This document shows, piece by piece, positions 1-6,000 of a stretch of DNA of 64,000 nucleotides. The DNA is from an uncultured Eubacteriales bacterium (lineage in GTDB: Bacteria; Bacillota; Clostridia; Oscillospirales; Oscillospiraceae): contig UQZR01000001.1 of NCBI GenBank assembly GCA_900545585.1, forward strand, positions 52,022 through 116,021, in the 5' to 3' direction. Positions within the stretch are counted from its first letter, which is position 1. The number at the start of each line of letters is the position of its first letter. The position numbers were made by a program.

Positions 1-3000
1 CTCAAGCCCACCACCGACGTGGGCAGTCAGGTCATCGTCAACGGACAGGTGCGGGGTAATATGCAGGCCATGGAGTATTTCCGCCGCAAGCGGGACTATA
101 TCCCCGCCGTGCTGGAGGCCTACAACAGTCTGGCAGCAGAGTATGACGTGATCGTCATTGAGGGGGCAGGCAGCCCTGCGGAGATCAACCTCAAGCAGGA
201 CGATATCGTCAATATGGGCCTTGCCAAGCTGGTGGACGCGCCGGTGCTGCTGGTGGGCGACATCGACCGAGGCGGCGTGTTCGCCCAGCTCTACGGCACA
301 GTGGCGCTGCTGGAGGAGGACGAGCGCCGCCGCATCAAGGGCGTGGTGGTCAACAAGTTTCGGGGCGACCGGGCCATTCTGGAACCGGGACTAAAGACGC
401 TGGAGCAGCTGTGCGGCATCCCGGTGGCGGGGGTCATCCCCTACGCCCATGTAGATATCGACGATGAAGACAGCCTGACCGAGCGGTTTGACCGCTCCAA
501 AGATCGAAAGCTCTTGGATATCGCGGTGATTCGTGTGCCGCGCATCTCCAATTTCACGGATTTCAGCCCCTTCGAACATTACGAAAACGTGTCGCTGCGC
601 TATGTGGATCAGGTGGGCGACCTCCATCAGCCGGACATGATCCTGCTGCCGGGTACCAAGAGCACCATTGCCGACCTGCGCTGGCTGCGGCAGTCCGGTC
701 TGGAGGCGGCCGTCCTGAAGGCAGCCGATGCCGGTACGCTGATCTTCGGCGTCTGCGGCGGCTATCAGATGCTGGGGCGCACCGTGTCCGATCCGGAGCA
801 GGTGGAGTCCGCCGGTGTCACGGAGATCAACGGTTTGGGCCTGCTGGAGATGGACACCGAATTCCGGGGTGAAAAGGTGCAGACTCAGACGCAAGGCGTC
901 TTTCGCGGTGTGGAGGGAATGCTCTCCGGTCTGAACGGCCTGGCCTACGAGGGATACGAGATCCACATGGGCCGCAGTCAGCAGCAGATGCCCGCCCTCA
1001 CCGGCAGCAGAAACGTATACGGCAGCTATGTCCACGGCATTTTTGACGCGCCGGGCATCGCCGATACGATCCTGAAAGCACTGTGCGCCAGAAAGGACGT
1101 GTCCTTTGACGCGCTGGCGACCTTTGACGCCTACGGCTACAAGGAACGGCAATATGACCTGCTGGCGGATGTGGTACGCGGCGGACTGGATATGTCCTTT
1201 GTCTACCGAGTGCTGCGCCGGGAAGTATAACGAAACAAGTTCCGATGGAAAAGCGGTGAGAGGTTCGAGCAGGGTCTTACGCCTGATTGACGGCATGACG
1301 GATCTGCCAGTACATCTGCGGGGCTATCTTGCTGCATCCCGGCAAAGGCAGAGGCTGCCGCATTTACCTGTTACTGGCTGGGCGGTTATCAGGCACTGCC
1401 GGTATTCCCCCACATGGCACATAGCCTTTGAAAGACTGCTGACGAAAGAGCGATGTATGCTTCTGTAAGGCAACATCCGCAAGCGCAATAATGGTCGGCG
1501 GGTGGGCCGGTACACAGTCGCCCATGATACGGAGACCGGCAATCGCCGTGGGGAGTTGGCTTGATGTCTGAATGGAGAACTACGCAAAATCAAACTGCGG
1601 TCATCCACATTCAAACCCTCGCAAGGCTTCCTCAAGAACCACATCAAGCCGCAGATCGGCAGCATCCCGGTGTCCTCGATGCTCGGTCATTACTCCGCGG
1701 GCTTCACGCTGGACACCTACGCCCACGTCACCACCGACGCCCAGCTCAAAGCCGCCCAGACGATGGGCAATATCCTCTCCTGTGCCGTCTGATGCTTTCC
1801 GCTGCCCGCTCCCGTTGGGGTCAGCGTTTGGGTCAGAAAAAAGCAGCGGGAGAAAACAACAACTTATGCAAACAAAAAGACCCGAAACCTTACGGTTTCG
1901 GGTCTTTTTGGCACGCCGTGAGGGATTCGAACCCCCGGCCTTCTGGTCCGTAGCCAGACGCTCTATCCAGCTGAGCTAACGGCGCATGTCTCAACGACAG
2001 CTTAGTTATAATATCACACTGCTCCACAAAATGCAAGAGAAATTTTCTCATAATTTCAAAATTTTTTATCCGCAGACACCAAAAGCCTCCCTCCTGCCCC
2101 CAAATCACTTGACGCGGCCCGCCTTGAACCGTATAATTAGTTGTATATGTGCATTTTGCCGTCGTACCGACAGCTTTCTGCCTATCCAGACCATTTTGGG
2201 GAGGAATACTATGCCCCGTTCTGCTGCGCCGGCATCCGGCGTCATCCGTTGGATCGCCTCGGTGGCGGGCCGTGCCGGATACCTCACCGCCCTGCTGCTG
2301 GCGGTGCAATCTGTTCTGGCCCTGTGCGGCGTAGGCTACGCGCTGATCCTGCGGGCGCTGATCGATGCGGCCACCGCCGGCCAGACCCAGACCTTTGTCC
2401 GCAGTGCTATCTGGCTGGTGAGCCTGATGGCTTTCCAGATCGTTCTCCGCGCGGTGGACCGCCATCTCAGTGAGTACACCCGCGCTACGCTGGAAAACCG
2501 CTTCAAGGCCCGCCTGTTCCAGACGCTGCTGCGAAAGGACTACGCCGCCGTATCCGCCGTGCACTCCGGCGAGTGGCTGAATCGCCTGACCTCTGATACC
2601 GCCGTGACGGCGGACACGCTGGCTCAGGTAATTCCCAATGCCGCGGGCATGCTGGTCCGCCTGATTGCTGCGGCGGCGGTGCTGCTGCGCATGGAGCCGC
2701 GGCTGGCCGCCATCATCCTGCCGGCAGGCATCGTACTGGCCTTGTTGGCCACCGTGTTCCGCCGTACCCTCAAGCGCCTGCATAAACGGATACAGGAGGC
2801 AAACGGCCGTCTCCGTATCTACCTGCAGGATTGCCTGTCCAGCCTGCTGGTAGTCCGTATCTTCGGACGCGAGAAGGCCGTATCGGCGGACGCCGATGCC
2901 CGCATGGACGCCCACCGTCAGGCCCGCATGGCCCGCACACGGTTCTCTAACCTGTGCAACGTGGGCTTCAGCGCCGCCATGTACGGATTCCTGCTGGTAG

Positions 3001-6000
3001 GCGTCATCTACTGCGGCAGCGGCATCCTCCACGGCACCATGAGCTACGGCGTGTTCGCCGCCGTGCAGCAGCTCATCACCCAGATACAGGGTCCCTTCGC
3101 CAATCTCACCGGCTACCTTCCCCGCTTCTATGCCATGCTGGCCAGCGCCGAGCGCCTGCGGGAGGCGGAGCACTTCCCTGACGATCTCACAGTCTCCCCC
3201 GTCCCCGCATTGGAGATACACCGCTTCTACCAGCAGGAGCTGCACGCCTTTGGCCTGCATGATGCCTGCTTCACCTACCATAGCCGTGGCAATGAGACAC
3301 CGCCGTCCACTGTCTCCCACTTGGACCTCACTGTGGATAAGGGCAGCTGCATCGCCCTCACCGGCCCCTCCGGCTGCGGCAAGAGTACCGTCCTGAAGCT
3401 GCTGATGGGCATCTACCCTCTGGACAGCGGCGCATGCTTTCTGCGGAGCGCCGATGGCGACCGCCCCCTGGACGCCGGCTGGCGCGGCCTGTTCTCCTAC
3501 GTGCCCCAGGGCAACCACCTGCTCAGCGGCACCATCCGCCAGATCGTAGCCTTCTCCGACGCCCCCTCCCCCAACGATGAAGCCCGCATCCTGCGGGCGC
3601 TGCACATTGCCTGTGCCGACGACTTCACCGCCGCGCTGGAGCAGGGGCTGGATACTCCCATTGGCGAGCGGGGTGCGGGTCTGTCCGAGGGCCAGCTCCA
3701 GCGTATCGCCATCGCCCGGGCCATCTTCGCCGACCGCCCCGTGCTGCTGCTGGACGAAGCCACCAGCGCGCTGGACGAGGCCACAGAGGCCCGTCTGCTG
3801 TCCAACCTGCGGCAGATGACGGACAAGACCGTGCTCATCGTCACTCACCGCCCCGCCGCGCTGTCCATCGCGGACCGCACGGTGGCGCTGGTGCCCCCGC
3901 AGGACGCCTGAAAGGAGGCTCCATGGAACATTTCTGGATCAATGCCGCGGGCCTTCCCGCGGAGATCACAGCCCAGCATCCGCTGACGCGGCGGCTCTGT
4001 CAAGATTACGAGATCGCGCCGCCCCAGTCCCCCGCCGTCCTCACTGCCTGCGCCGAACCCGAGACGGCGATGCGTCTGGCAGACGGCGCAGCCTCCCCTG
4101 CCTATCTGGAGTTCCTCTGCATCCACGACAGTCTGGCCGCGCAGCTCCCCGCCCACCACCGGTTTCTGATGCACGGCGCCGCCATCGCCTTCGACGGTGC
4201 CGCCTATCTGTTCACCGCACCCAGCGGCACCGGCAAGACCACCCATCTCCGACTGTGGCGGCAGTACCTGGGCAGCCGCGTCACCGTGGTCAACGGCGAC
4301 AAGCCGTTTCTGTCGCTGGAGCCTGACGGCACCGTCCGCGTCTGGGGCTCCCCCTGGGCCGGTAAGGAGCGGTGGCAAAGTCCCATCAGTGTCCCACTCT
4401 GCGGTGTCTGCCTGCTGGAGCGCGGCACGGACCGCATCTGCCGCCTGCCGCCGGAGCAGGCGCTGACGCCCCTGTTCCGCCAGACGTACCATCGGGACGA
4501 TCCCGCCCTGGAGTACCTCACCCTTGGTTTTCTGGACGCACTGCTGCGCCGTGTCCCCGTGTACCGGCTGACCTGCGGCATGACGGACGACGCCGTCCGC
4601 TGCAGCTTCGAGGCCCTCACCGGTCTCCCCTACGAAAATTACCGCCGCCCTGATGGCTGTGGCGAAGAAGGAAGTGCATTGTGATGAAACTCAGATCCGG
4701 ATTCATTCTCCGTGAGGTGCTGGGCGCACCCGTGGTGGTAGCCACCGGCGACGCCGCCCGCCACTTTCACGGCATGGTGAAGCTCAACGAGACCGGCGGC
4801 ATCATCTGGAAGGGCCTGCAGGAGGGCCTGACGGAGCCTCAGCTGGCGGAGCGCCTGGCCCTGACCTACGACGTGACACCGGAGCAGGCCGCCGCCGATG
4901 TAGCCGCCATGCTCCGCCAGATGGCCGATAACGGCTTTCTGGAGCCATGACCCCCTGCCGCATTGAGGACGTGCTGGCGTCCGAGGGCGTCTACGCCGCC
5001 ACCACGTGGGGCACCAGCATGTACCCCATGCTGCGCTCGGGCCGCGACACCGTCATTCTCCGCCCGCCCCAGGGCCGCCTGCGCTGCTACGATGTCCCGC
5101 TGTATCGCGTGGGGGAGAAATATGTCCTGCATCGGGTGATACGCGTCCTGCCGGAGGGCTACCTCATCCGCGGTGACAACTGCCTGACCACGGAGCGGGT
5201 GCAGGAGAGCCAGGTCATCGGCGTGCTTACCGGCTTCTACCGCGACGACCGTCCGGTGGACCTGTCCGGCACCGGCTACCGTCTGTACTGCCGCATCTGG
5301 TGCGCCCTGTCGCCGCTGTGGCGGCTCTATCGCCGCGTCAGCAGCGCCGCCGCTTCTCTGCTCTGCCGTCTGCATAAAAAACGCCCTGCGGATTGACCGC
5401 AGGGCGTTTTTTCGATGTACCGTCAGCTCTCCACGCTGTAAAGGCCCGCTACCTCGTCCAGCGCCACGGAGAACACCACAGACTGGGCCTCCGACTGGGC
5501 TCCCGCCTTCTCCATGATGGCCTGCATGATGGCGGCACGCTTCTCCGCCGGCGTTACCAGCAGGATCATCTCCCGCTCCTCGGTGATGGCCATACCGAAA
5601 AACTTATTGCCGTTGGCCGCATCGGCGGCGCGGGTGTGCAGCACGGTACCGCCCTGTGCGCCTGCGGCGGACGCTGCCTCCATCACCATATCGGAATAGC
5701 CGCCGTTGGCGATGGCCACCACCAGCTCATAACCGGAATTGCTCATACGTTCCTCCTCCTTTACCGTCAGATCCGGCTCCACGCCTGTGCCGCCGGAGAT
5801 GAGATACTGCATGGCGGATCTCCCGCCCACGCTGCTCAGATGCAGGCATACGGCGATACCGCTGCCCGGCCGGTCGATGTGCATGGTGTCCACCAGCTCC
5901 CGCATCAACACGTCCTTGATCTGCGGCGTCACCACGGAGAACAGCACAGATTTCTCCGTGGCCTCCAGTCCCAGATAGCTGAGCACGTCGTCGCTGGCGG

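What the first reader, a model, noticed from the sequence alone, without database searches (positions are those of the whole stretch)
2109..5413. Orphan RiPP-like operon: ABC exporter, HprK-like kinase, PqqD-like RRE and a Ser/His S24/S26 peptidase, with no precursor, cyclase or B2 protease
Seen in sequence: a consensus promoter (TTGACG-17-TATAAT), four translationally coupled genes (two ATGA start/stop overlaps) and a clean terminator form one transcription unit. The gene set matches the accessory half of Firmicutes lasso-peptide clusters: a McjD-like single-polypeptide ABC exporter, an HPr-kinase-related kinase of the kind that phosphorylates lasso precursors, and a PqqD-like B1/RRE. The lasso cyclase (Asn-synthetase-like C), the transglutaminase-like B2 protease and any precursor ORF are absent. 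In their place is a soluble 149-aa S24/S26-type peptidase in which the usual general-base Lys appears replaced by His (YVLHRVI), a SipW/Sec11-like feature. From established knowledge, HprK-related kinase plus PqqD chaperone pairs also define Haft's 'HPr-rel-A' system of unknown function, but that system carries nucleotidyltransferase and GNAT genes rather than an exporter and peptidase. This combination therefore looks like an undescribed peptide-processing and export module: RRE-guided leader recognition, phosphorylation, leader removal by the S26-like enzyme, then export. The substrate peptide would be encoded elsewhere.
Basis: partly seen in the sequence, partly recalled or inferred. Interest (0 to 1): 0.8.

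Follow-up and report, generated by a model that had tools for sequence, protein, structure and literature searches.

The report
Phosphopeptide maturation-export operon lacking its precursor
This four-gene operon from a common gut Oscillospiraceae bacterium is a clostridial relative of the "linear polyphosphorylated peptide" system described in 2026 (exporter, HprK-like kinase, peptide-binding chaperone, signal-peptidase-like leader protease), so it is real and its logic is already known, but this copy has no substrate peptide gene and no nucleotidyltransferase nearby.

Summary
A conserved sigma-70 promoter, four tightly packed genes and a strong terminator form one unit (2109-5412). The genes are an MsbA-like ABC exporter, a 253-aa P-loop protein with an HprK/PEPCK-like fold, a PqqD-type RRE, and a 149-aa TM-less S26B (SipW/Sec11-type) peptidase with Ser24/His62.

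Popov et al. (Nat Commun, May 2026; PMC13381572) characterised the same gene set in Paenibacillus as the lpp cluster. There, LppK polyphosphorylates a core Ser, LppB presents the leader, LppS cleaves it and LppD exports.

The window peptidase profile aligns to LppS (hhalign 95%) with Ser and His in register. The RRE keeps the LppB residues that bind the YxxP leader.

In 83 related loci, kinase, RRE and peptidase co-occur in 57. No lasso cyclase was found in any. In 26 loci I found 35 LPP-like precursors (leader KKxYExPxxEVIxFxxEDVITxS), usually just upstream of the kinase gene.

The window and its close relatives have no precursor and no LppN, yet all four genes are under purifying selection. 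Best reading: a minimal clostridial LPP-type cassette acting on a peptide encoded elsewhere. New variant of a known kind; moderate interest.

The parts
2109..2137 (+). Sigma-70-type promoter, -35 TTGACG, 17-nt spacer, -10 TATAAT
   Evidence: 11 of 12 matches. Both hexamers are invariant in the diverged relative L088 while the flanks differ.
2200..2204 (+). Ribosome-binding site GGAGG, 6 nt upstream of the ABC start codon
   Evidence: Read directly. Conserved in L088.
2211..3911 (+). LppD-like MsbA-type ABC exporter, 566 aa, half-transporter (TMD plus NBD)
   Evidence: ABC_membrane 9.3e-28 and ABC_tran 9.5e-25. Best NCBIfam models are TIGR02204 and TIGR02203, the models that define the 'MsbA transporter' group in PMC13381572 Suppl. 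Data 2. Hydrophobic segments lie in the N-terminal half.
3923..4684 (+). LppK-like P-loop kinase-fold protein, 253 aa (ScmC/PF27840 family, HprK/PEPCK-like fold)
   Evidence: Invariant residues H84-G85, APSGTGK(S/T)T at 99-107, NGDKP at 124-128, PWAGKE at 144-149. AF2 model pLDDT 93. Foldseek matches PEPCK and HprK/P at 4e-6 to 9e-6. Weak best hits to TIGR04249 and TIGR04352, as for most kinases in the LPP dataset.
4684..4950 (+). LppB-like discrete RRE (PqqD family), 88 aa from ATG 4684 or 89 aa from GTG 4681
   Evidence: PqqD 1.6e-16. 27% identity to LppB, E = 2e-7. PDB hits 9x90 (PbaB1), 6jx3 and 9x8z (LppB). The LppB leader-binding residues N33, Y60 and D70 are conserved as N36, Y63 and D73.
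4947..5396 (+). LppS-like archaeal/ER-type (S26B, SipW-like) leader peptidase, 149 aa, no TM segment, C-terminal amphipathic helix 109-144
5376..5412 (.). Intrinsic terminator: GC-rich 10-bp core stem extended by A/U pairs, the stop codon lies in the loop, T6 tail. Probably bidirectional.
   Evidence: Sequence. dG -27.8 kcal/mol, z = -7.5.

Best explanation
The operon is a minimal clostridial version (order D-K-B-S) of the LPP-type RiPP maturation and export machinery.

Inferred by homology with the characterised lpp system:
- The PqqD-family RRE binds a YxxP-type leader of a small precursor peptide.
- The P-loop, HprK/PEPCK-fold enzyme phosphorylates the peptide using ATP. The likely site is the conserved Ser just after the conserved leader Thr.
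- The TM-less Ser24/His62 (Glu83/Asp77) S26B-type peptidase removes the leader. The RRE presents the substrate to it.
- The MsbA-like half-transporter exports the product.

Shown here: the transcription unit; the four protein identities at domain or fold level; conservation of the catalytic and leader-binding residues; gene-neighbourhood coupling, including fusions; an LPP-like precursor family next to related clusters; purifying selection on all four genes.

Inferred only: the chemistry (phosphorylation), the cleavage site, and the idea that this organism's substrate is encoded elsewhere in its genome. No precursor and no LppN nucleotidyltransferase lie within 64 kb.
For: Published system: PMC13381572 defines the lpp BGC as SpI-like LppS + RRE LppB + HprK-like LppK + MsbA-like LppD + NTP_transf_5 LppN + LppA. 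It shows Ser3 polyphosphorylation by LppK, and LppB-dependent leader cleavage by LppS that is abolished by S29A, H68A or D93A.

Homology to that system:
- The peptidase profile aligns to LppS with 95.4% probability. S24 matches S29, H62 matches H68, E83 matches D93.
- The RRE is 27% identical to LppB and keeps N33, Y60 and D70.
- The kinase and exporter hit the same TIGRFAM models that define those groups in the paper.
- The kinase fold matches HprK/PEPCK.

Co-occurrence: kinase + RRE + peptidase occur together in 57 of 83 non-redundant loci, with the exporter in 30. Fusions link the parts: kinase-peptidase in L052, and peptidase-NTP_transf_5 in L035, L070 and L071.

Precursors: 35 peptides with the leader KKxYExPxxEVIxFxxEDVITxS occur in 26 loci. 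33 lie within 1 kb of a core gene, and 19 are directly upstream of the kinase gene on the same strand. A reversed-sequence control gave 0 hits.

Functional state of this copy: the same operon sits in the same chromosomal context in a relative with 68-78% protein identity, with dN/dS of 0.27-0.37 for all four genes. The promoter is conserved.

Precedent for a distant substrate: the paper's own dataset lists SpI loci whose precursor and RRE are elsewhere in the genome.
Against: - No precursor-like ORF was found in the 64-kb window, or within +/-8-10 kb of the operon in same-species contigs or in the closest four-gene cassettes (L001, L004, L088, L092-L094). The substrate is therefore unidentified.
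- LppN is absent.
Its profile scores to HprK-related models are far below their cut-offs.
- The clostridial leaders differ from the Bacilli motif. There are two more residues between P and T, and the motif is T-x-S rather than T-x-x-S. Cleavage and phosphorylation sites are extrapolated.
- In the paper's dataset the clostridial SpI proteins fall outside SSN cluster 1. Their RREs are labelled 'other' and their precursors 'ND'.
- The RRE scores no better against LppB (9x8z, E = 0.031) than against the lasso B1 protein PbaB1 (9x90, E = 0.002).
Confidence: 0.7

Rival explanations
1. Orphaned cassette. The operon once served a cis-encoded precursor that has been lost. It is now idle, or retained for a side activity such as generic export or immunity.
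For: No precursor or LppN in 64 kb or in relatives' flanks. The operon abuts a tRNA-Arg integration hotspot with an integrase remnant, where rearrangements occur. dN/dS of 0.27-0.37 is only moderately constrained.
Against: All four ORFs are intact and syntenic across relatives with 68-78% protein identity, and dN/dS is below 0.4 for every gene. The promoter and RBS are conserved. Catalytic and leader-binding residues are intact. The protein clusters were seen on 513 to at least 1000 contigs. Trans-encoded precursors are documented for LPP loci.
Confidence: 0.12
2. The same enzymes act on a different substrate. Instead of a small LppA-type peptide, the cassette processes and exports a larger secreted or cell-surface protein or an envelope component, perhaps tied to capsule or exopolysaccharide biology.
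For: Related loci often sit among Wzz/CpsD/CpsB/TagH-type capsule genes, as reported for LPP loci. L006, L008 and L009 carry a TM-anchored acidic low-complexity protein and a 316-aa TM protein inside the operon instead of a YxxP peptide. L019 fuses the peptidase to a 993-aa ORF with TM-like stretches and no Pfam hit. LPP precursors can reach 200 aa.
Against: The RRE keeps the specific YxxP-binding residues. No capsule genes flank the operon in the window, where the neighbours are DUF1538, Impact_N, GNAT and HflX. No candidate substrate gene lies in the operon.
Confidence: 0.12
3. Truncated lasso-peptide cluster. These would be the accessory genes left after loss of the cyclase C, the protease B2 and the precursor.
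For: The PqqD protein's best NCBIfam hits are lasso B1 models. The leader motif resembles the lasso YxxPxL motif. In Bacilli, about one third of SpI loci adjoin lasso clusters.
Against: No Asn-synthetase-like PP-loop protein other than the housekeeping MnmA and ThiI was found in about 83 related loci, and no cyclase-like family appeared among conserved neighbours. The four-gene unit is conserved as such in unrelated neighbourhoods. The lasso B1 scores are below their cut-offs (37.9 vs 70; 29.7 vs 80).
Confidence: 0.02
4. Member of Haft's HPr-rel-A system or of the SynChlorMet (Scm) cassette.
For: Weak hits to TIGR04352 (HprK_rel_A), TIGR04249 (ScmC), TIGR04353 and TIGR04248. Precomputed Pfam label PF27840 'ScmC'. 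Distant relatives L031 and L048 do contain rSAM/SPASM maturases.
Against: All scores are far below the curated cut-offs (13.7 vs 200; 14.1 vs 125; 16.3 vs 35; 19.2 vs 100). There is no second kinase, GNAT or nucleotidyltransferase, and no radical-SAM genes, in the operon or window.
Confidence: 0.03

Closest known systems
LPP (linear polyphosphorylated peptide) biosynthetic gene cluster lppA-K-B-S-D-N of Paenibacillus alginolyticus DSM5050 (Popov et al., Nat Commun 2026, PMC13381572)
   Same: Shares the core set: an archaeal-type SpI/SipW-like Ser/His leader peptidase, a discrete PqqD-type RRE that keeps the Tyr-binding Asp and the Pro-fixing Asn, an HprK-like P-loop kinase of the TIGR04249/TIGR04352-like type, and an MsbA-like exporter. 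Related clostridial loci carry YxxP-leader precursors with variable, often Gly/Asn/Asp-rich cores. Association with capsule loci is frequent.
   Different: - No LppN in the window (16 of about 83 related loci have an NTP_transf_5 gene or fusion) and no LppA within 64 kb.
- Gene order is D-K-B-S.
- The host is Oscillospiraceae, not Bacilli.
- Glu83 stands where LppS has D93.
- The leader consensus is YExPxxEVIxFxxEDVITxS, against YxxPxVLxHQxIxFETxxS.
- Clostridial SpI proteins fall outside the paper's SSN cluster 1, with precursors left undetermined.
Paeninodin/pseudomycoidin-type Bacillota lasso peptide clusters (B1 RRE, HprK-like kinase, NTP transferase, ABC exporter)
   Same: RRE-guided recognition of a [Y/W]xxP leader, an HprK-like kinase tailoring a Ser, and ABC export.
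   Different: No macrolactam cyclase C was found, and no B2 cysteine protease was noted among neighbours. An S26B-type serine peptidase removes the leader instead.
SipW / Sec11 / archaeal signal peptidase I (MEROPS S26B; TIGR02228)
   Same: Clan SF fold. GxSMxP Ser motif, His in (V/I)xHR replacing the bacterial Lys, and a GDN box.
   Different: No transmembrane anchor. Scores below the TIGR02228 cut-off (23 vs 51.85). Genetically tied to an RRE and a kinase rather than to secretion substrates.
HPr kinase/phosphorylase (HprK/P) and PEPCK P-loop fold
   Same: Fold match at Foldseek E = 4e-6 to 9e-6. H-G motif, Walker A motif and a downstream acidic GD motif.
   Different: No Pfam Hpr_kinase_C hit. 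The N-terminal domain of about 80 residues differs. The substrate is presumably a peptide rather than HPr.

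Membership tests
LPP-type RiPP BGC (PMC13381572) | SpI-like (archaeal-type S26B) leader peptidase homologous to LppS, with a Ser/His/acid catalytic set | tested here: met
   hhalign of A1 vs LppS: probability 95.4%, E = 1.7e-8. S24 matches S29, H62 matches H68, E83 matches D93, D77 matches D87. All are invariant in 33 homologues. Glu replaces the Asp that was tested by mutation.
LPP-type RiPP BGC (PMC13381572) | Discrete PqqD-type RRE with the YxxP-binding pocket (LppB N33, Y60, D70) | tested here: met
   PqqD 1.6e-16. BLASTP to LppB E = 2e-7. The N, Y and D equivalents are present in the window protein and in nearly all of the related PqqD proteins aligned. 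Caveat: the RRE is not closer to LppB than to the lasso B1 protein PbaB1.
LPP-type RiPP BGC (PMC13381572) | HprK-like kinase (LppK) | tested here: inconclusive
   Fold match to HprK/P and PEPCK. The P-loop and GD motifs are invariant. Best models are TIGR04249 and TIGR04352, as for 132 of 152 kinase hits in the paper's SSN cluster 1.
LPP-type RiPP BGC (PMC13381572) | MsbA-like ABC exporter (LppD) | tested here: met
   ABC_membrane plus ABC_tran. Top models are TIGR02204 and TIGR02203, the models used for that group in the paper.
LPP-type RiPP BGC (PMC13381572) | NTP_transf_5 nucleotidyltransferase (LppN) | tested here: not met
   An HMM built from 13 PF14907-type neighbours finds it in 16 related loci but gives no hit in the 64-kb window.
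LPP-type RiPP BGC (PMC13381572) | Precursor LppA with a YxxP...F-x-T/A leader in or near the cluster | tested here: not met
   The leader HMM and regex scans of all small and medium ORFs in the window and in close relatives' flanks gave no credible hit. 35 such peptides were found in 26 more distant loci.
LPP-type RiPP BGC (PMC13381572) | Product is a leader-cleaved peptide polyphosphorylated on Ser | not testable with these tools
   Needs expression and mass spectrometry.
Lasso peptide BGC | Asn-synthetase-like macrolactam cyclase (C) | tested here: not met
   A PP-loop motif screen of ORFs longer than 350 aa in the window and in about 83 related loci found only MnmA- and ThiI-like proteins. 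No cyclase-like family appeared among conserved neighbours. A motif screen is less sensitive than a profile search.
Lasso peptide BGC | Transglutaminase-like B2 leader protease | not tested
   I ran no B2-specific profile or motif screen. The operon contains only the four genes described. The listed conserved neighbour families (nucleotidyltransferase-like, Wzz/CpsD/CpsB/TagH-like and others) were not individually checked against a B2 profile.
HPr-rel-A system (TIGR04352/TIGR04353) | Kinase and PqqD proteins scoring above the equivalog cut-offs, with a second kinase, a nucleotidyltransferase and a GNAT | tested here: not met
   13.7 bits vs cut-off 200, and 16.3 vs 35. The partner genes are absent from the operon.
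SynChlorMet cassette (ScmC/ScmD/ScmE/ScmF) | ScmC and ScmD equivalogs plus two radical SAM/SPASM proteins | tested here: not met
   14.1 bits vs cut-off 125, and 19.2 vs 100. The operon has no rSAM genes. The broader Pfam family PF27840 'ScmC' does cover the protein.
Housekeeping type I signal peptidase (SipW/Sec11, S26B) | Membrane anchor and a TIGR02228 score above the cut-off | tested here: not met
   Maximum KD19 hydropathy 0.49, so no TM segment. 23 bits vs cut-off 51.85.

The most novel reading that the evidence does not exclude
The clostridial clade to which this operon belongs is a distinct, very large sister family of the Bacilli LPP system. It has its own leader code (YExPxxEVIxFxxEDVITxS), usually lacks the nucleotidyltransferase, sometimes includes radical-SAM partners, and reaches beyond Bacillota into Bifidobacterium. 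In this prevalent gut Oscillospiraceae species the K-B-S-D cassette would work as a stand-alone, trans-acting maturation and export hub for peptides encoded elsewhere. Alternatively, the ScmC-type enzyme might carry out chemistry other than Ser phosphorylation.
Probability: 0.25. Interest if true: 0.6.

Novelty: new variant of a known kind. Interest (0 to 1): 0.4.

Why it matters
The function of LPP-type peptides is unknown even in the system where they were discovered. This analysis shows that the same enzymatic logic is widespread in gut Clostridia.

- The peptidase family has 7,764 representatives at 50% identity (E <= 1e-3).
- This particular operon's proteins were seen on hundreds to at least 1000 metagenomic contigs.
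- The clostridial clusters have their own recognisable precursor family, which the original paper left undetermined.

A precursor-less, nucleotidyltransferase-less cassette under purifying selection in a common human-gut organism is a practical entry point. Two questions could be addressed with it: whether these machines act in trans, and what the phosphopeptides do (signalling, biofilm or capsule, competition).

For annotation, three of the four products are currently named only generically ('hypothetical protein', 'PqqD family protein', 'S24/S26 family peptidase'). They could be named more precisely.

Tried and rejected
- Literature search on 'ScmC/SynChlorMet/HPr-rel-A' returned only unrelated acronyms. 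A search on PF14907 was unhelpful. The relevant paper surfaced only with 'RiPP + HPr kinase + RRE + precursor peptide'.
- Pfam and NCBIfam scans of the candidate precursor peptides found no family.
- A profile of the kinase family against PDB sequences gave only P-loop noise. Fold search was needed.
- The pattern scan for terminators missed the real terminator. Folding recovered it.
- Regex searches for [YW]xxP...T-x-S in the window returned only out-of-frame ORFs in GC-rich DNA, rejected on inspection.
- Iterating the leader HMM added no further loci.
- I considered that the ScmC-type enzyme might activate Asp/Glu carboxylates to form a lasso-like macrolactam, because many cores start with Gly and are acid-rich. 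I dropped this as the lead hypothesis once the LPP paper showed Ser phosphorylation and linear products for the homologous system. The universally conserved Ser after the leader Thr fits that better.
- I could not fetch LppK.
- The organism's whole genome could not be scanned for a trans-encoded precursor.

Full report
**1. What is in the sequence**

The region is a compact, plus-strand transcription unit.

- A near-consensus promoter (TTGACG, 17 nt, TATAAT; 2109-2137) was the best site in the first 9 kb.
- In a relative whose four proteins are 68-78% identical (L088), both hexamers, their spacing and the GGAGG ribosome-binding site are unchanged, while the surrounding bases have diverged. This footprint argues for a real promoter.
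- The first gene starts at ATG 2211, six bases after GGAGG. The 641-aa ORF listed from 1986 is an artefact that runs through the promoter and abuts a tRNA gene.
- The gene junctions are tight. The ABC stop at 3909-3911 is followed by AGGAGG and ATG 3923. The kinase TGA at 4682-4684 lies inside GTGATG, so PqqD starts at GTG 4681 or ATG 4684. The PqqD/peptidase junction is ATGA at 4947-4950.
- The last stop codon sits in the loop of a 16-bp hairpin followed by T6 (5376-5412; -27.8 kcal/mol, z = -7.5). The hairpin has an A-tract on its other side and faces the convergent gene 5423-6121.

**2. What the four proteins are**

*Exporter (566 aa).* It has ABC_membrane plus ABC_tran domains. Its best NCBIfam models are the MsbA relatives TIGR02204 and TIGR02203.

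*RRE (88/89 aa).* This is a clear PqqD-family RRE (1.6e-16).

*Kinase-like protein (253 aa).*
- It has no hit in the local Pfam copy and only E about 0.02 to TIGR04249 (ScmC) and TIGR04352 (HprK_rel_A).
- In the large protein database its family carries the newer Pfam label PF27840 'ScmC'.
- Invariant residues across 32 homologues are H84-G85, a Walker A motif APSGTGK(S/T)T, NGDKP and PWAGKE.
- An AlphaFold2 model (pLDDT 93) matches PEPCK and the catalytic domain of HprK/P at Foldseek E = 4e-6 to 9e-6.
- It is therefore HprK-like by fold and motif, not by profile membership.

*Peptidase (149 aa).*
- It scores only weakly with profiles (Peptidase_S24 E = 0.033; archaeal-type signal peptidase TIGR02228 E = 6e-5, below cut-off).
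- Its family has invariant G22, S24, M25, P27, H62, R63 and G76-D77-N78, plus E83.
- A family profile aligns Ser24 with the nucleophile of a bacterial signal peptidase I, and His62 with its general-base Lys.
- It has no hydrophobic segment. It ends in a long Arg-rich amphipathic helix.

**3. Is the gene set a unit?**

Homologues of the kinase-like protein were collected from a species-dereplicated genome collection (80 loci) and from metagenomic contigs.

- Among 83 non-redundant loci, kinase + PqqD + peptidase co-occur in 57, and with the exporter in 30. Gene order varies and the chromosomal neighbourhoods are unrelated.
- Fusions confirm functional linkage: kinase-peptidase in L052; peptidase-nucleotidyltransferase (PF14907) in L035, L070 and L071; and the peptidase fused to a 993-aa ORF with no Pfam hit in L019.
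- A stand-alone PF14907 gene occurs in 13 loci, making 16 with the fusions.
- Capsule-type genes (Wzz/CpsD/CpsB/TagH-like, by resemblance) recur next to the cluster.
- No locus has an Asn-synthetase-like PP-loop protein apart from housekeeping MnmA and ThiI. The 'truncated lasso cluster' idea therefore fails. A B2-type protease was not screened for specifically.

**4. Precursors exist in relatives**

Scanning small ORFs revealed a peptide family with a conserved N-terminal leader, consensus KKxYExPxxEVIxFxxEDVITxS, followed by a variable tail.

- 35 such peptides occur in 26 loci, often in tandem (four in L023).
- 33 are within 1 kb of a core gene, and 19 are immediately upstream of the kinase gene on the same strand.
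- Reversed-sequence controls gave no hit.
- They match no Pfam or NCBIfam family. Where a database source names them, they are 'hypothetical protein'.
- Some loci contain only a precursor plus the kinase gene (L067; also L053 and L069, though those contigs end just after the kinase gene). This points to the kinase-like enzyme as the core modifier.

**5. The literature match**

Popov et al. (Nat Commun, 20 May 2026; PMC13381572) started from an archaeal-type signal peptidase found in Bacilli lasso neighbourhoods and defined 'linear polyphosphorylated peptides' (LPPs).

- The conserved set is SpI (LppS), a discrete RRE (LppB), an HprK-like kinase (LppK), NTP_transf_5 (LppN) and an MsbA-like pump (LppD). 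The clusters are often embedded in capsule loci.
- Precursors carry a YxxPxVLxHQxIxFETxxS leader.
- In B. subtilis, LppK puts one to four phosphates on core Ser3. LppS cleaves after Thr-1, and unphosphorylated precursor is processed poorly.
- In vitro, cleavage needs LppB and is abolished by S29A, H68A or D93A.
- The biological role is unknown.

Using sequences from the paper's supplement:

- The window peptidase family aligns to LppS with 95.4% probability (E = 1.7e-8). S24 matches S29, H62 matches H68, E83 matches D93.
- The window RRE is 27% identical to LppB (E = 2e-7).
- The residues by which LppB grips the leader are conserved in the window protein and in almost all related RREs, whether or not a cis precursor was detected. 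These are N33 (fixes the Pro kink), Y60, and D70 (hydrogen bond to the leader Tyr).
- The paper's 'HprK kinase' group consists mostly of proteins whose best models are TIGR04249 or TIGR04352. Its SpI group is TIGR02228, and its pump group includes TIGR02203 and TIGR02204. These are the same models hit by the window proteins.

By analogy, in the clostridial leaders the conserved Thr would be the P1 residue, and the conserved Ser two positions later would be the phospho-acceptor. This explains why that Ser is kept even when the rest of the core has no Ser or Thr (for example GLDDDELPKVDPEI). This step is inference.

**6. How this copy differs**

- The paper concentrated on SSN cluster 1 (Bacilli). 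Its supplement lists a few clostridial SpI proteins (clusters 4 and 9: Dehalobacter, Anaerocolumna, Ruminococcus), with RREs labelled 'other' and precursors 'ND'.
- The window peptidase is 32% identical (E = 3e-20) to the Ruminococcus entry.
- The window has neither LppN nor any LPP-like precursor in 64 kb. The same is true of the +/-8-10 kb flanks in same-species contigs (L092-L094), a congeneric relative (L088) and the next-closest four-gene cassettes (L001, L004).
- The operon nevertheless occupies a fixed chromosomal position (followed by a 232-aa gene, DUF1538, Impact_N, GNAT, HflX and L31) in these relatives. All four genes show dN/dS of 0.27-0.37.
- The host is an uncultured Oscillospiraceae bacterium. 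Its copies of these proteins were seen on 513 to at least 1000 contigs, and the RRE and peptidase are named 'PqqD family protein' and 'S24/S26 family peptidase'.
- The paper's table contains LPP loci whose precursor and RRE lie elsewhere in the genome, so a trans-encoded substrate has precedent.

**7. Verdict**

I file the operon as a clostridial, minimal (D-K-B-S) variant of the LPP-type machinery. Two defining features are tested and not met in cis (LppA and LppN). One is inconclusive (direct LppK homology). The substrate in this organism is unknown.

Confidence:
- About 0.7 that the operon works as an RRE-guided phosphorylation, cleavage and export module.
- About 0.12 that it is an orphaned remnant.
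- About 0.12 that it handles a non-LppA substrate.

The peptidase family is large: 7,764 representatives at E <= 1e-3 and 2,983 at E <= 1e-10. This is much broader than the 240 sequences analysed in the paper. The family also extends to Bifidobacterium isolates, so the clostridial and actinobacterial branch deserves its own census.

Noticed in passing
window 1469-1985: A tRNA-Arg(ACG) gene on the minus strand (1909-1985) lies directly upstream of the operon. It is preceded by a degenerate integrase remnant: 1670-1792 matches the last 41 aa of an intact 383-aa integrase in a same-species contig at 95% identity, and 1469-1681 matches residues 10-116 at 43%. Same-species and related contigs carry different islands at this spot (integrase plus Rep; an IS30-like transposase with small phage-like ORFs; macro-domain and ADP-ribosylglycohydrolase genes). 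It is an integration hotspot. In the window the island is deleted down to cobQ.
   Followed up: partly
L021, L030, L042 (Bifidobacterium hapali, B. scaligerum, B. santillanense); L023 (Synergistaceae MAG); L041 (Spirochaetales MAG); L074 and L086 (Acholeplasmataceae and Acholeplasma MAGs): LPP-like kinase, RRE, peptidase and exporter genes, with YxxP-leader precursors in L021, L023, L030, L041 and L042, occur outside Bacillota, including in cultured Bifidobacterium isolates. The 2026 paper states that LPPs are restricted to Bacillota.
   Followed up: partly
L048:34-6911 and L031:8001-10684: Hybrid clusters in which radical SAM/SPASM maturases sit between the ScmC-type kinase gene and the PqqD and peptidase genes. 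Their YxxP-leader precursors have Cys-rich cores. This suggests thioether or other rSAM chemistry grafted onto the same leader/RRE/peptidase chassis, resembling Haft's SynChlorMet cassette.
   Followed up: partly
L052:4195-5346; L035:1143-2690; L070:2427-4049; L071:4563-6227; L019:9023-12004: Domain fusions: kinase-peptidase (L052), peptidase-NTP_transf_5 (L035, L070, L071), and the peptidase fused to a 993-aa ORF with TM-like stretches and no Pfam hit (L019). Several peptidase-family representatives of 536-684 aa in the global search are probably similar fusions.
   Followed up: partly
L006:5569-7916, L008:5555-7867, L009:4223-6734: A sub-type of the cluster encodes a TM-anchored, highly acidic, low-complexity protein (for example GNEGG repeats) just upstream of PqqD, and a 316-aa TM protein between the peptidase and the exporter. 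No YxxP peptide was detected, and the kinase gene is divergently transcribed. This may be an alternative substrate class.
   Followed up: no
window 5376-5412 and 5423-7796: The operon terminator is a symmetric A6-stem-T6 hairpin that probably also terminates the convergent pair: a 232-aa protein (5423-6121, minus strand) and a DUF1538 membrane protein (6135-7796, minus strand). This pair stays with the operon in all close relatives.
   Followed up: no
L010, L020, L054, L067, L083: The ScmC-type kinase gene also occurs with no RRE, peptidase or exporter within several kb. In L067 it sits alone with a precursor peptide. The kinase-like enzyme may therefore act without the rest of the machinery in some lineages.
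   Followed up: no
window 26609-29839 (minus strand): A 1076-aa ORF. One nested internal-start ORF (224 aa) begins MLRITVGEGNYIIPSNVTK...GGNGTISASKAG, which looks surface-protein-like. It was seen only because that nested ORF matched a loose regex, and it was not analysed.
   Followed up: no
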